NCBI RefSeq assembly: GCF_013122565.1
Contig: NZ_CP053258.1
Strand: one strand, 5' to 3'
DNA length: 64,000 nucleotides
Origin: Escherichia coli
Lineage (GTDB): Bacteria > Pseudomonadota > Gammaproteobacteria > Enterobacterales > Enterobacteriaceae
How positions within the stretch are numbered: the first letter of the stretch is position 1; every line of letters starts with the position of its first letter. Shown here piece by piece: positions 46,438 through 49,660 of the stretch. Position numbers and translations under genes: made by a program. The notes beneath the pieces were generated by a model. It made no database searches. It had not been told where the DNA came from and saw nothing but the letters and a program-made list of their open reading frames with translations.

Positions 46438-46890
46438 TTATTCCTTACCCAGCAATGCCTGCAGATCCTGCTTCAGAGAAGACATTTTATTCGCGTATTT
46501 CTCTTTGTTTTCCGCATCTTCAATCAGCTGAACAATCGTTTCAGAAAGCGTTTTACCGCGACGCTGCGCAAGACCAGCCAGACGTTGCCAGACAATAAAT
46601 TCCAGATCGATCGATTTTTTGCGCGTATGCTGGTGTTCCGCATTAAAATGGCGCTTCCGTCTGGCCCGAATGGTTTGCTTCATGCGATTGACCAGTTCCG
46701 GATTCATATGCTTGTCAATCCAGCCATTTACCAGCACGGGTTCATTTTCCAGCGAGAGCAACACATCGACGGCTTCCTGGGCGGCACTGGCTTCTATGTA
46801 ACGGGTGATTAACTCCCCTTCGCGGTGCTTCTTCACCAGATACTTCCATTTCCAACCGCTTTCAAGATTTTCAAGTTGTTGATATTTCAT
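46438..46890 (-). CDS. matP: Macrodomain Ter protein MatP
   Basis: 150 aa [35 protein letters not shown]... Confidence 0.94.
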
Positions 46891-47075
46891 AGCGATCTCA
46901 ATGTTACCGTGTAACTCTTTACAGAATATCAGCTTTTTAGGCCAGTGAAGAAAAGAATCTCCATCCTGTGAGCTTTAACGCTCATGCGAGGAGTATTGTC
47001 GGTGCTTTCTACGTGTGCTGTAGTGCCGGTTACGGTATAATCGCGGCTTTGACAACAGACTAAAAAACATCAACT

Positions 47076-48836
47076 TTGACCATTACGAAACTTGCATGGC
47101 GTGACCTGGTTCCTGATACCGATAGCTATCAGGAAATATTTGCTCAGCCACATTTGATTGACGAAAACGATCCTTTATTCAGTGATACTCAACCGCGACT
47201 GCAATTTGCGCTGGAGCAGTTGCTGCATACGCGAGCATCCTCCTCTTTTATGCTGGCGAAGGCCCCGGAAGAGTCTGAGTATCTGAATCTTATTGCCGAT
47301 GCCGCGCGTACGCTACAAAGCGATGCAGGCCAACTGGTGGGCGGTCACTATGAGGTTTCCGGCCACTCCATCCGCTTACGTCACGCAGTGAGTGCAGATG
47401 ATAATTTTGCGACTTTAACGCAAGTTGTCGCTGCCGACTGGGTAGAAGCGGAGCAACTCTTTGGCTGCCTGCGCCAGTTTAATGGCGACATTACCCTGCA
47501 GCCTGGTCTGGTGCATCAGGCAAATGGCGGTATTCTCATCATCTCTTTGCGTACACTGCTGGCGCAACCTCTTCTGTGGATGCGGCTGAAAAATATCGTT
47601 AACCGCGAGCGTTTTGACTGGGTTGCGTTTGATGAGTCGCGCCCTCTCCCCGTCTCTGTGCCTTCGATGCCATTGAAGCTGAAAGTCATTCTGGTAGGCG
47701 AACGCGAATCATTGGCTGATTTCCAGGAGATGGAGCCAGAGCTTTCAGAGCAGGCTATTTATAGCGAATTTGAAGATACTCTGCAGATTGTCGATGCGGA
47801 GTCAGTAACCCAGTGGTGTCGCTGGGTGACATTTACCGCCAGACATAATCACTTACCTGCACCGGGAGCGGATGCCTGGCCGGTACTTATCCGCGAAGCA
47901 GCACGCTACACCGGTGAACAAGAAACGCTGCCGCTTAGCCCGCAGTGGATCCTCCGCCAGTGTAAAGAGGTCGCCTCCCTGTGTGATGGCGACACCTTCT
48001 CCGGCGAGCAGCTAAACTTAATGCTACAGCAGCGTGAATGGCGCGAAGGTTTCCTCGCTGAACGCATGCAGGATGAGATCCTTCAGGAGCAAATCCTGAT
48101 TGAAACCGAAGGCGAACGCATCGGGCAAATTAACGCCCTTTCGGTCATTGAATTTCCGGGTCATCCACGCGCTTTTGGCGAACCTTCTCGCATTAGCTGC
48201 GTTGTGCATATTGGCGATGGTGAATTCACCGACATCGAGCGCAAAGCGGAGCTTGGCGGCAATATCCATGCGAAAGGGATGATGATCATGCAGGCGTTCC
48301 TGATGTCGGAACTACAGCTTGAGCAACAGATCCCCTTCTCAGCATCGCTGACATTTGAGCAGTCATACAGTGAAGTTGATGGAGATAGTGCCTCGATGGC
48401 TGAACTCTGCGCCCTGATAAGCGCCCTCGCCGATGTGCCGGTGAATCAGAGTATCGCTATCACAGGTTCAGTCGATCAGTTCGGTCGCGCCCAGCCGGTC
48501 GGTGGTTTAAATGAGAAAATCGAAGGCTTCTTTGCTATTTGCCAGCAACGTGAGTTAACCGGGAAACAAGGTGTCATTATCCCCACAGCTAACGTTCGCC
48601 ATTTAAGTCTTCACAGTGAACTGGTGAAAGCAGTAGAAGAAGGCAAATTCACCATCTGGGCAGTAGACGATGTGACTGACGCACTGCCGTTATTATTAAA
48701 TCTGGTGTGGGATGGCGAAGGCCAAACGACGCTGATGCAAACCATCCAGGAACGTATCGCGCAAGCATCGCAACAGGAAGGACGTCACCGTTTTCCATGG
48801 CCATTACGTTGGCTGAACTGGTTTATTCCGAACTGA
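47076..48836 (+). CDS. ycbZ: Lon-like protease YcbZ (S16 peptidase domain, no P-loop seen)
   Basis: 586 aa from TTG start, (M)[21 protein letters not shown]...; Lon Ser-Lys dyad context [10 protein letters not shown] and GGLNEKIEG. Confidence 0.88.
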
Positions 48837-48847
48837 TCGGACTTGTT
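48831..48847 (+). promoter_or_regulatory. FadR operator of fabA
   Basis: AACTGATCGGACTTGTT, match to FadR consensus AACTGGTCNGACCTGTT; overlaps ycbZ stop codon. Confidence 0.7.
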
Positions 48848-48848
48848 C

Positions 48849-48866
48849 AGCGTACACGTGTTAGCT
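48849..48866 (+). promoter_or_regulatory. FabR operator of fabA
   Basis: Palindrome AGCGTACACGTGTTAGCT immediately downstream of the FadR site. Confidence 0.6.
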
Positions 48867-48904
48867 ATCCTGCGTGCTTCAATAAAATAAGGCTTACAGA
48901 GAAC

Positions 48905-49423
48905 ATGGTAGATAAACGCGAATCCTATACAAAAGAAGACCTTCTTGCCTCTGGTCGCGGTGAACTGTTTGGCGCTAAAGGCCCGCAATTGCCAGCACCG
49001 AACATGCTGATGATGGACCGTGTGGTCAAAATGACCGAAACGGGTGGTAACTTCGACAAAGGGTATGTTGAAGCAGAACTGGATATCAATCCGGATCTGT
49101 GGTTCTTCGGATGCCACTTTATTGGCGATCCGGTTATGCCGGGATGCCTGGGCCTGGACGCGATGTGGCAGCTGGTAGGGTTCTACCTCGGCTGGCTGGG
49201 CGGCGAAGGTAAAGGCCGCGCGCTGGGCGTTGGCGAAGTGAAATTCACTGGTCAGGTACTGCCGACAGCGAAAAAAGTGACCTACCGTATTCACTTTAAA
49301 CGCATTGTTAATCGTCGTCTGATTATGGGTCTGGCAGATGGCGAAGTGCTGGTTGATGGTCGTCTGATCTATACCGCCAGCGACCTGAAAGTCGGTCTGT
49401 TCCAGGATACGTCTGCCTTCTGA
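48905..49423 (+). CDS. fabA: 3-hydroxydecanoyl-ACP dehydratase/isomerase FabA
   Basis: 172 aa [40 protein letters not shown]...; hot-dog fold His in [10 protein letters not shown]. Confidence 0.95.
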
Positions 49424-49448
49424 TTATAATCAGACAGAGTATCAAAAG

Positions 49449-49480
49449 GCGAAACCTCCGCAATGCGGAGGTTTCTTTTT
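49449..49480. terminator. Intrinsic terminator between convergent fabA and rmf
   Basis: GAAACCTCCGC-AAT-GCGGAGGTTTC hairpin followed by TTTTT. Confidence 0.65.
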
Positions 49481-49492
49481 AAAGAGACAGAA

Positions 49493-49660
49493 TCAGGCCA
49501 TTACTACCCTGTCCGCCATGGCTTCTCGCCAGCCTCCCAGCCATTGTGACCTTTGATTCAGCGTCTGATAGGGACACATTTCTTTTGAGCGTCCGGCGAT
49601 GCCGGCCTGATAACCACGTTGATGTGCCCGTTCCAGGCGATCTCGTTTTTGTCTCTTCAT
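49493..49660 (-). CDS. rmf: Ribosome modulation factor
   Basis: Hand translation MKRQKRDRLERAHQRGYQAGIAGRSKEMCPYQTLNQRSQWLGGWREAMADRVVMA (55 aa). Confidence 0.85.
   Translation of the reverse strand: MKRQKRDRLERAHQRGYQAGIAGRSKEMCPYQTLNQRSQWLGGWREAMADRVVMA

What the first reader, a model, noticed from the sequence alone, without database searches (positions are those of the whole stretch)
47076..48836. YcbZ: Lon-like protease with intact Ser-Lys dyad context but no recognisable P-loop, TTG start
The C-terminal region has Lon S16 catalytic signatures ([19 protein letters not shown]). I could not find a Walker A GxxxxGK[ST] motif in the roughly 380-aa N-terminal region, which suggests an ATP-independent or degenerate-AAA Lon-like enzyme. 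Its substrates are unknown. It starts with TTG and sits between matP and fabA.
Basis: partly seen in the sequence, partly recalled or inferred. Interest (0 to 1): 0.35.

Follow-up and report, generated by a model that had tools for sequence, protein, structure and literature searches.

The report
YcbZ: LonC-type protease, dead ATPase
This is the E. coli core gene ycbZ, a Lon-like serine protease whose ATPase module is an inactive remnant; that type of enzyme (LonC) is already described, so the finding is correct but ordinary.

Summary
Window 47076..48836 (+) is a 586-aa ORF with a TTG start, identical to the commonest E. coli YcbZ allele, between matP and fabA.

- **Protease domain:** the Ser-Lys dyad is S438 ([10 protein letters not shown]) and K481 (GGLNEKIEG), invariant in 83 homologues.
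- **ATPase motifs:** no GxxxxGK[ST] exists. The P-loop position is A63-L70 (APEESEYL; Tyr69 replaces the Lys). The Walker B strand is ILIISL (Ser157/Leu158 replace Asp/Glu).
- **Closest structure:** Meiothermus taiwanensis LonC, an experimentally ATPase-less Lon-like protease (sequence E = 1e-57). An AlphaFold2 model (pLDDT 93.6) matches it over the full length (TM 0.83).
- **Prior description:** Lon-like proteases without AAA+ motifs, apparently including an E. coli member, were described as LonC in 2012.

What I add:
- YcbZ belongs to a near-monophyletic short clade that lacks LonC's helical-hairpin extension and all P-loop Gly/Lys residues.
- The TTG start is the only start compatible with the conserved N-terminus.
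- The order matP | ycbZ | fabA | rmf is largely conserved in relatives down to 33% identity.
- The ycbZ stop codon lies inside the FadR operator of fabA.

ATP independence and substrates remain inferred. Verdict: already known, low interest.

The parts
47076..48836 (+). ycbZ coding sequence (586 aa plus TGA stop), a LonC-type Lon-like protease
   Evidence: ORF list. RefSeq annotation of the same CDS. 100% identical to P0002, a cluster of 6079 members.
47076..47078 (+). TTG start codon
   Evidence: An in-frame stop lies 5 codons upstream. The conserved N-terminal motif L6-x-W8-xx-L11-x-P13 is kept in relatives down to about 45% identity. The locus at 46% identity (L004) also starts TTG ACx, and L002 has an in-frame TTG ACG at the matching place. 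More distant relatives use ATG or GTG.
47036..47041 (+). TATAAT hexamer 34 nt upstream of the start; a possible -10 element, function not shown
   Evidence: Read directly from the sequence. The consensus scan found no full -35/-10 promoter. [quoted passage not shown]
47076..47780 (+). AAA-like alpha/beta subdomain (aa 1-235), degenerate, with no helical-hairpin extension
   Evidence: AlphaFold2 model, pLDDT 93.6. Foldseek full-length match to MtaLonC, TM 0.82-0.83. Pfam AAA_32 matches aa 140-225.
47262..47285 (+). P-loop remnant A63-P-E-E-S-E-Y69-L70 (Tyr69 at the Walker A Lys position, Leu70 at the Ser/Thr position)
   Evidence: MAFFT columns shared with GPSGTGKT and GPEGTGKT of long relatives. 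Same register by hhalign. It lies between strand 58-62 and helix 67-80 of the model.
47532..47549 (+). Walker B remnant strand I153-L-I-I-S157-L158 (Ser and Leu in place of Asp and Glu)
   Evidence: HMMER alignment to the MtaLonC motif GGYLILDA, where D313 is the Walker B Asp (motif named in PMC3391209). Strand 153-157 in the model.
47796..48083 (+). Alpha-helical lid subdomain of the AAA-like module (about aa 241-336)
   Evidence: Helices 241-257, 265-279, 289-300, 310-324 and 326-336 in the model. Aligned to MtaLonC.
48108..48725 (+). Lon S16 proteolytic domain (about aa 345-550)
   Evidence: Pfam Lon_C. PDB matches to Lon protease domains. Model.
48387..48389 (+). Codon of the catalytic Ser438 (GD-S-AS)
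   Evidence: Aligns with MtaLonC S582. Invariant in 83 sequences. The preceding Asp437 is the LonB/LonC-type residue (PMC9569914).
48516..48518 (+). Codon of the catalytic Lys481 (NE-K-IEG)
   Evidence: Aligns with MtaLonC K625 (K625 named as the catalytic Lys in PMC3391209). Invariant in 83 sequences.
48540..48563 (+). LonC-specific insertion 1, C489-QQR-E-L-T-G496 (consensus CX3GLX(G/E))
   Evidence: Consensus from PMC3391209. Aligned without gaps to MtaLonC CKALGLSG. C489 is more than 90% conserved. The Gly position is Glu in YcbZ.
48618..48632 (+). LonC-specific insertion 2, L515-VK-A-V519 (consensus phi-X2-A-phi)
   Evidence: PMC3391209. Aligned to MtaLonC VLEAV. A519 is more than 90% conserved.
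48744..48833 (+). C-terminal tail (aa 557-586), including the published ribosome-stalling peptide ending in Pro585-Asn586
   Evidence: PMC8848927. Lowest model confidence falls here, pLDDT 57-63 for the last 16 residues (aa 571-586). A fragment of aa 565-586 was recovered as an RNase E two-hybrid prey (PMC13232886).
48831..48847 (+). FadR operator of the fabA promoter (AACTGATCGGACTTGTT), overlapping the ycbZ Asn586 codon and the TGA stop
   Evidence: The fabA FadR gel-shift probe in PMC4259882 equals window 48821-48876, and its core is shared with the fabB probe. Coordinates. The exact operator limits rest on my own knowledge of the FadR consensus.
46438..46890 (-). matP, the divergent upstream neighbour
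   Evidence: The matP-ycbZ pairing is conserved in loci L002, L005, L006 and L008.
48905..49423 (+). fabA, the downstream neighbour, reported as co-transcribed with ycbZ
   Evidence: A ycbZ-fabA operon is reported in PMC4161252. The adjacency is conserved in all six related loci.

Best explanation
YcbZ is a soluble Lon-like serine protease of the LonC kind.

Its C-terminal S16 domain carries a working Ser438-Lys481 dyad. Its N-terminal 340 residues are an AAA+ fold that no longer binds or hydrolyses ATP and most likely serves only as the structural ring that builds and gates a degradation chamber.

By analogy with Meiothermus LonC, it should assemble into rings and cleave unfolded or loosely folded polypeptides that enter the chamber without ATP-driven unfolding.

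YcbZ is a stripped-down version of LonC. It lacks LonC's helical-hairpin extension (the substrate-recognition and chaperone basket), and it lacks even the residual phosphate-binding P-loop.

Shown here: the fold, the dyad, the motif losses, the clade structure and the start codon.

Inferred: ring assembly, ATP independence, and a preference for unfolded substrates.

The physiological substrates are unknown. Published genetics point towards translation.
For: Identity and homology
- Sequence: MtaLonC is the best PDB hit (E=1.2e-57, YcbZ aa 140-547 against LonC 296-691). LonB is next (E=1e-15), and LonA matches only in the protease domain.
- Structure: AlphaFold2 model with pLDDT 93.6 and pTM 0.89. 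Foldseek TM is 0.82-0.83 to MtaLonC crystal structures over the full length, 0.72 to TonLonB and 0.4 or less to LonA.

Active site
- G436, D437, S438, T463, G464 and K481 are invariant in 83 homologues at 29-88% identity.
- The Asp-Ser arrangement is the LonB/LonC type.
- Both LonC-specific protease-domain insertions are present.

Dead ATPase
- No Walker A by regular expression.
- Tyr69 sits at the P-loop Lys column. None of 36 short-clade proteins has Lys or Arg there, against 55 of 61 long relatives.
- Ser157-Leu158 occupy the Walker B Asp and Glu positions.
- The eight aligned loop columns carry a mean net charge of about -1 in the short clade and about +0.8 in long forms (window K62-Y69).

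Biochemical precedent
- MtaLonC and the Thermus protein TTC1975 have no ATPase activity, and ATP does not stimulate TTC1975 proteolysis (PMC3391209).
- The MtaLonC P-loop binds only phosphate (PMC13069640).

Not a membrane protein
- The highest Kyte-Doolittle score over a 19-residue window is 1.54, and those windows lie inside core elements of the fold.

Physiology from the literature
- Loss of ycbZ gives resistance to erythromycin and other agents (PMC7686311; PMC6657729).
- A ycbZ mutant shows more stop-codon readthrough (cited in PMC9508795).
Against: - No biochemistry exists for YcbZ itself in the papers I could search. ATPase activity, nucleotide binding, oligomeric state and peptidase activity were not measured here.
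- YcbZ lacks the extension that mediates substrate recognition in MtaLonC, so the LonC mechanism may not transfer in detail.
- The N-terminal homology is weak by sequence alone (hhalign probability 21%, E=0.001) and rests mainly on the predicted structure.
- RefSeq and other databases still call the protein an AAA family ATPase or a putative ATP-dependent protease.
Confidence: 0.8

Rival explanations
1. YcbZ is a real ATP-dependent protease, as the database names say. It would bind nucleotide in a non-canonical way that motif searches miss.
For: RefSeq names it an AAA family ATPase, and other papers call it a putative ATP-dependent protease. The AAA+ fold is fully retained. MtaLonC, also without canonical motifs, was reported to bind ATP-gamma-S at 1:1 (PMC3391209).
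Against: All three Gly residues and the Lys of the P-loop are replaced (A63, E66, E68, Y69), and the loop is acidic. Both Walker B acidic residues are gone (S157, L158). No position of the loop is conserved across the family. Even MtaLonC, which keeps GPPSLGK, has no ATPase activity, and later structures show only phosphate in its P-loop.
Confidence: 0.04
2. The protease activity is secondary. YcbZ would act mainly as a chaperone, scaffold or adaptor on the translation or RNA-decay machinery, binding ribosomes or RNase E rather than degrading proteins in bulk.
For: MtaLonC has a dual chaperone-protease function (PMC13069640). YcbZ gave two-hybrid signals with RNase E through aa 565-586 and as the full-length protein (PMC13232886). 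Genetic links to translation fidelity and to macrolide resistance.
Against: The MtaLonC chaperone activity was attributed to the helical-hairpin extension, which YcbZ lacks. Strict invariance of the dyad and the substrate-loop residues (E428, Q429, Y431) argues that catalysis is under selection. The RNase E interaction comes from a two-hybrid screen only, and YcbZ is not among the interactors that paper validated by copurification or pull-down.
Confidence: 0.1
3. YcbZ is an inactive pseudoenzyme, or the annotated gene is mis-started and the real product begins at a downstream codon (TTG27, TTG49 or ATG59), so there is no intact N-terminal module.
For: The start is a weak TTG with no obvious Shine-Dalgarno sequence. 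The first 139 residues have no direct sequence match in Pfam or the PDB.
Against: Residues 6-57 are conserved in relatives down to about 45% identity. They include a QPRL..AL motif (aa 39-47) that aligns with the GQERA..AL motif ahead of the LonC P-loop. The model is confident over aa 1-60 (pLDDT 80-97). The locus at 46% identity also starts with TTG (L004); L002 has an in-frame TTG at the matching place. The catalytic residues are invariant. The gene is kept in endosymbiont genomes of 0.59 and 1.08 Mb.
Confidence: 0.03
4. YcbZ is a phage-defence Lon-like protein of the BrxL or CARF-Lon type.
For: There are weak PADLOC hits to CARF_LON (E=0.0038) and BrxL (E=0.037).
Against: Both hits cover only about 60-85 residues around the catalytic Ser. 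The NCBIfam BrxL model scores 9.8 bits against a cut-off of 628. The gene is a core chromosomal gene in a conserved housekeeping block, not a defence island.
Confidence: 0.01

Closest known systems
LonC subfamily (MEROPS S16.007): Meiothermus taiwanensis LonC (PDB 4FWD, 4FW9, 8K8V) and Thermus thermophilus TTC1975
   Same: - Best sequence match (E=1e-57) and best structural match (TM 0.83).
- Same domain order: AAA-like alpha/beta subdomain, lid, then S16 protease.
- Asp-Ser...Lys active site and the FEQ(S/N)Y substrate loop.
- Both LonC-specific protease-domain insertions.
- No canonical Walker motifs, and no membrane segment.
   Different: - YcbZ has about 10 residues (aa 105-114) where MtaLonC has a helical-hairpin extension of about 165 residues. 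P-loop to Walker B spacing is 89 residues against 254.
- MtaLonC keeps GPPSLGK and the Walker B Asp, and binds phosphate. YcbZ has APEESEY and Ser157.
- YcbZ comes from a mesophile and has no biochemistry.
- Identity is only about 25%.
Archaeal LonB (Thermococcus onnurineus, PDB 3K1J)
   Same: Second-best structural match (TM 0.72). Same AAA_32-type module (Pfam description 'LonB-like, AAA domain') and the same Asp-Ser active-site type.
   Different: LonB has intact Walker A and B motifs and a membrane-anchoring insertion. YcbZ has neither. The NCBIfam LonB model scores 85.9 bits against a cut-off of 516.6.
LonA (E. coli Lon, protease La)
   Same: Same S16 protease fold and Ser-Lys dyad.
   Different: LonA has a large N-terminal domain, a working AAA+ motor and Pro before the catalytic Ser. 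Its match to YcbZ is limited to the protease domain (E about 1e-4) and full-length TM is 0.4 or less.
Long LonC-like 'Lon protease family' proteins (640-840 aa) in the 50%-identity representative set
   Same: 36-42% identity to YcbZ over aa 140-550, with the same protease-domain insertions and an identical GDSAS...NEKIEG active site.
   Different: They carry 150-310 extra residues between the P-loop and Walker B. Most long forms keep GxGK or GxGR: 47 of 61, of which 5 are fully canonical GxxGxGK[ST].

Membership tests
Lon protease family (MEROPS S16) | Lon_C proteolytic domain fold | tested here: met
   Pfam PF05362 E=2.5e-10, 40.7 bits against a cut-off of 21.1. Structural match to Lon protease domains.
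Lon protease family (MEROPS S16) | Catalytic Ser-Lys dyad at the homologous positions | tested here: met
   S438 aligns with MtaLonC S582 and K481 with K625. Both are invariant in 83 homologues.
LonC subfamily | LonB-like active-site consensus (Asp, not Pro, before the catalytic Ser) | tested here: met
   G436-D437-S438. Criterion taken from PMC9569914.
LonC subfamily | [quoted passage not shown] | tested here: met
   C489QQRELTG496 (the Gly position is Glu) and L515VKAV519, aligned without gaps to MtaLonC. Criterion from PMC3391209.
LonC subfamily | AAA-like module without canonical Walker A and B motifs | tested here: met
   Regular expressions, alignment columns and retained fold.
LonC subfamily | Soluble, with no transmembrane insertion | tested here: met
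   Highest 19-residue Kyte-Doolittle score is 1.54, inside core fold elements. The model shows no inserted hydrophobic hairpin.
LonC subfamily | LonC-specific helical-hairpin extension inserted in the alpha/beta subdomain (the feature said to separate LonC from LonB in PMC13069640) | tested here: not met
   83 residues lie between the P-loop remnant and the Walker B strand. The mid and long relatives have about 150-310, and MtaLonC has 254 from K59 to D313. The model has only short beta-hairpins there.
LonC subfamily | Residual P-loop (GPPSLGK) that binds phosphate or nucleotide | tested here: not met
   APEESEYL sits at those columns, and no Lys or Arg occurs there in any of the 36 short-clade proteins.
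LonC subfamily | No ATPase activity; ATP-independent degradation of unfolded substrates | not testable with these tools
   Needs purified protein. Inferred from the motif losses and the MtaLonC and TTC1975 precedent.
LonC subfamily | Hexameric or heptameric ring assembly | not tested
   Only a monomer model was made.
AAA+ ATPase (the RefSeq product name) | Walker A Lys and Walker B acidic residues | tested here: not met
   Tyr69 at the Lys column and Ser157-Leu158 at the Asp-Glu columns. The fold alone is retained.
LonB (archaeal) | Intact Walker motifs plus a membrane anchor | tested here: not met
   TIGR00764 scores 85.9 bits against a cut-off of 516.6.
LonA | N-terminal substrate-binding domain, a working AAA+ module, and Pro before the catalytic Ser | tested here: not met
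   TIGR00763 scores 31.3 bits against 608, and only in the protease domain. Asp437 precedes the Ser.
BrxL (BREX Lon-like protein) | Full-length match to the BrxL model, and a BREX gene neighbourhood | tested here: not met
   TIGR02653 scores 9.8 bits against 628. PADLOC BrxL E=0.037 over 85 residues. The neighbours are matP, fabA and rmf.

The most novel reading that the evidence does not exclude
YcbZ-type proteins would form a distinct, nucleotide-blind, extension-less branch of the LonC-like family, fixed in the matP-ycbZ-fabA-rmf block of Enterobacterales, Vibrio-like and Pasteurellaceae genomes and kept even in endosymbionts of 0.6-1 Mb. In this reading the chamber is gated not by nucleotide but by a partner such as the ribosome or RNase E. 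The protein would then be an ATP-independent quality-control protease for translation products or ribosomal components, which would explain macrolide resistance and increased stop-codon readthrough when it is lost.
Probability: 0.2. Interest if true: 0.55.

Novelty: already known. Interest (0 to 1): 0.17.

Why it matters
The finding itself changes little. Lon-like proteases with a dead AAA module have been described since 2004-2012, and ycbZ is a named E. coli gene.

Three smaller points are worth keeping.
- **Database names:** 'AAA family ATPase' and 'putative ATP-dependent protease' are very probably wrong, because every nucleotide-binding residue is gone.
- **A natural minimal LonC:** YcbZ has no recognition basket and no phosphate site, so it could show what the bare chamber does.
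- **Unknown role in a model organism:** it is one of the few E. coli proteases with no known substrate, despite reproducible phenotypes (macrolide and multi-stress resistance on loss, translation fidelity) and retention in very small genomes.

Tried and rejected
- **Regex Walker B hits.** WVAFDE (aa 182-187) and IWAVDD (aa 527-532) matched the Walker B pattern. I rejected both. The first lies after the true Walker B strand (153-157), in the segment before the sensor-1 strand. The second is in the protease domain.
- **BrxL or CARF-Lon defence proteins.** Rejected.
- **LonB or LonA membership.** Rejected.
- **Downstream start codons (TTG27, TTG49, ATG59).** Rejected because the N-terminus is conserved and confidently modelled.
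- **Promoter scan.** It found no full sigma-70 promoter near ycbZ. Only a lone TATAAT hexamer is reported.
- **hhalign on the isolated N-terminal regions.** The result is weak (probability 21%, E=0.001). I use it only as agreement on the register.
- **Gagarinova et al. 2016.** This is the primary source for the translation phenotypes. It could not be read, so those phenotypes are second-hand.
- **Literature search for P75867, b0955 and lonH.** It returned only unrelated papers.
- **Table S1 of the LonC paper.** It is not held as text. That the E. coli LonC-clade entry is YcbZ is therefore inferred from the figure legend.
- **Model coordinates.** They were not available to scripts, so I did not compute pocket geometry or electrostatics.
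Full report
**1. Observation**

The ORF at window 47076..48836 (+) encodes 586 aa from a TTG codon. An in-frame TAA sits five codons upstream, so nothing earlier can start it. The two quoted motifs are present: [10 protein letters not shown] at aa 434 and GGLNEKIEG at aa 476. No form of Walker A occurs anywhere; I searched G.{4}GK[ST], [AG].{4}GK[ST], GK[ST] and G.{4}G[KR].

The 3.1-kb stretch around the gene matches 5425 of 5426 complete E. coli genomes. There the same CDS is annotated as ycbZ ('AAA family ATPase'), flanked by matP and fabA, with rmf beyond. The protein is identical to a cluster of 6079 member sequences (P0002).

**2. What it is**

Pfam finds a LonB-like AAA domain (AAA_32, aa 140-225, E=6e-14) and Lon_C (aa 435-539, E=2.5e-10). 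The AAA_32 match starts at profile position 35 of 133, so the N-terminal part of the model is unmatched. No NCBIfam equivalog comes near its cut-off: LonB 85.9 bits against 516.6, Lon 31 against 608, BrxL 9.8 against 628.

Against solved structures the best hit by far is the Lon-like protease LonC of Meiothermus taiwanensis (4FWD and related entries). It scores E=1.2e-57, with YcbZ aa 140-547 aligned to LonC 296-691. Archaeal LonB follows at 1e-15, and LonA enzymes at about 1e-4 in the protease domain only.

That alignment places YcbZ S438 on LonC S582 and K481 on K625, the catalytic dyad (K625 is named in PMC3391209). In an 83-sequence alignment spanning 29-88% identity, G436, D437, S438, T463, G464 and K481 are invariant, as are the substrate-loop residues E428, Q429 and Y431. 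The protease is therefore under selection as an enzyme.

**3. The ATPase module**

I searched a library of 1.84 billion representatives clustered at 50% identity and aligned the 137 near-full-length hits among the 150 listed with YcbZ.

- *P-loop.* YcbZ A63-P-E-E-S-E-Y69-L70 falls in the columns where longer relatives carry G-P-x-G-x-G-K-[T/S/H/Q/R], for example GPSGTGKT in P0196 and GPEGTGKT in P0253. Tyr69 stands where the Walker A Lys should be.
- *Walker B.* The strand is I-L-I-I-S157-L158 where MtaLonC has Y-L-I-L-D313-A. The motif GYLILDA is described in PMC3391209.
- *Independent check.* A profile-profile comparison of the isolated N-terminal regions gives the same register, but weakly (E=0.001, probability 21%).
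- *Structure.* An AlphaFold2 model built on the 83-sequence alignment is confident (pLDDT 93.6, pTM 0.89). It shows the strand(58-62)-loop-helix(67-80) unit expected of a P-loop, with the Walker B strand at 153-157. Foldseek aligns the whole model to MtaLonC crystal structures at TM 0.82-0.83, to TonLonB at 0.72, and to LonA at 0.4 or less.

The N-terminal 340 residues are thus a real AAA+ fold in which every nucleotide-contacting motif residue has been replaced. The regex hit WVAFDE (aa 182-187) lies downstream of the true Walker B strand and is a false positive.

**4. Position within the family**

Relatives fall into three size classes by the number of residues between the P-loop column and the Walker B strand: about 50-90 residues (540-600 aa proteins), about 150-200, and about 290-310.

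| Class | n | Lys or Arg at the P-loop Lys column | Notes |
|---|---|---|---|
| Short | 36 | 0 | 19 have Tyr; 2 keep an acidic residue at the Walker B Asp column |
| Long | 61 | 55 | 5 are fully canonical GxxGxGK[ST] |

(Counts.)

In a neighbour-joining tree on the shared region (aa 140-550; no bootstrap), 34 of the 36 short forms make one pure clade that contains YcbZ.

MtaLonC has 254 residues from K59 to D313. The excess is its helical-hairpin extension, described as the LonC-specific insertion that recognises substrates and carries the chaperone activity (PMC13069640). YcbZ has about 10 residues at that site. MtaLonC also still binds phosphate in its P-loop, and YcbZ has no residue left to do so.

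YcbZ does keep the two protease-domain insertions that originally defined LonC, C489QQRELTG496 and L515VKAV519. It has no hydrophobic segment that could span a membrane.

**5. Mechanism**

The best-supported reading is an ATP-independent, ring-forming Ser-Lys protease. Its fossil AAA module would be a structural collar, and it would act on polypeptides that are already unfolded. This is the behaviour measured for MtaLonC and Thermus TTC1975 (PMC3391209).

- Shown here: fold, dyad, motif loss, clade structure.
- Inferred: ring assembly, ATP independence, substrate class.

The literature gives physiological hints but no substrates.
- Inactivating ycbZ mutations arise repeatedly under erythromycin and confer resistance to erythromycin, EDTA, norvaline, 5-fluoroorotate and other agents (PMC7686311; PMC6657729).
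- A ycbZ mutant is reported to show increased stop-codon readthrough (Gagarinova 2016, as cited in PMC9508795 and PMC8848927).
- YcbZ gave two-hybrid signals with RNase E (PMC13232886).

I could not read the Gagarinova paper itself.

**6. Start codon**

Residues 6-13 (L-x-W-xx-L-x-P) and a QPRL..AL motif at aa 39-47 are conserved in relatives down to about 45% identity. The latter aligns with the GQERA..AL motif ahead of the LonC P-loop. With the upstream stop, TTG at 47076 is the only canonical start that includes them.

The locus at 46% identity (L004) begins TTG ACT, against TTG ACC in E. coli. The gene call for the 56% locus (L002) begins at an upstream GTG, and it has an in-frame TTG ACG at the corresponding place. 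More distant relatives use ATG or GTG. No Shine-Dalgarno sequence is evident.

**7. Comparison with what is known, and novelty**

[quoted passage not shown] It names the group LonC and notes that E. coli has more than one Lon subfamily. MEROPS lists LonC as S16.007 (PMC9569914).

Strictly, YcbZ passes the 2012 sequence criteria for LonC but fails the later structural criterion (the helical-hairpin extension) and lacks the residual P-loop. It is best described as an extension-less, more degenerate branch of the LonC-like family. That refinement is modest, and I found no sign that it would surprise a Lon specialist.

**8. Seen in passing**

- The order matP(-) | ycbZ(+) | fabA(+) | rmf(-) recurs, in whole or in part, in all six related loci I fetched, down to 33% identity. 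The set includes a Pasteurellaceae genome and loci with neighbours typical of Vibrio-like genomes.
- The FadR operator of the fabA promoter (AACTGATCGGACTTGTT, 48831-48847) overlaps the last sense codon and the TGA stop of ycbZ. Those are the codons where a strong ribosome stall was mapped, Pro585 and Asn586 (PMC8848927).
- YcbZ-type genes survive in endosymbiont genomes of 0.59 and 1.08 Mb.

**9. Verdict**

The feature is a real but already described kind of enzyme in a named gene. Interest is low (0.17). The remaining open question is what YcbZ degrades, and that needs biochemistry.

Noticed in passing
window 46438-49660; loci L002, L004, L005, L006, L007, L008: The gene order matP(-) | ycbZ-type(+) | fabA(+) | rmf(-) is conserved, in whole or in part, in all six related loci fetched, down to 33% protein identity. 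The set includes a Pasteurellaceae genome and loci with DUF3466, uup and rlmL neighbours. Synteny this deep suggests regulatory or functional coupling of ycbZ with fabA, matP or both.
   Followed up: partly
window 48831-48847 (FadR site) and 48849-48866 (AGCGTACACGTGTTAGCT palindrome): The FadR operator of the fabA promoter overlaps the ycbZ Asn586 codon and the TGA stop. The fabA gel-shift probe of PMC4259882 equals window 48821-48876. The orthologue L002 keeps CTGATCGGACTTGTT with its stop codon in the same place. The codons critical for the published ribosome stall (P585, N586; PMC8848927) are therefore also constrained as operator DNA. The adjacent palindrome is, to my knowledge, the FabR site.
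   Followed up: partly
window 48744-48836 (ycbZ aa 557-586): The C-terminal tail ...[15 protein letters not shown] is a published, cryo-EM-validated ribosome-stalling peptide (PMC8848927). It is also the fragment (aa 565-586) recovered as an RNase E two-hybrid prey (PMC13232886). It is the least confident part of the model, with pLDDT 57-63 for the last 16 residues (aa 571-586).
   Followed up: partly
proteins P0123 and P0127 (relatives of the window ORF): YcbZ-type genes are retained in strongly reduced endosymbiont genomes: Candidatus Dasytiphilus stammeri (contig 0.59 Mb) and Candidatus Erwinia haradaeae (1.08 Mb). This hints at a housekeeping role.
   Followed up: no
window 47036-47041, and locus L002 just upstream of its ycbZ: A perfect TATAAT lies 34 nt upstream of the TTG start, and no Shine-Dalgarno sequence is evident. 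In orthologue L002 a TGTATAAT lies inside the N-terminal extension of the automated gene call, so that call (598 aa, P0121) is probably about 10 codons too long.
   Followed up: partly
window 47076-48836, RefSeq product name: The RefSeq and PGAP name 'AAA family ATPase' and the common label 'putative ATP-dependent protease' conflict with the complete loss of Walker A and B residues. 'Lon protease family protein', used for some orthologues, fits better.
   Followed up: yes
window 49451-49475: A strong bidirectional terminator-like hairpin (11 pairs, 7 G-C) sits between fabA and rmf, with T-runs on both strands. This fits the convergent fabA and rmf transcripts. PMC4161252 reports that rmf transcription can end within the ycbZ-fabA operon.
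   Followed up: no
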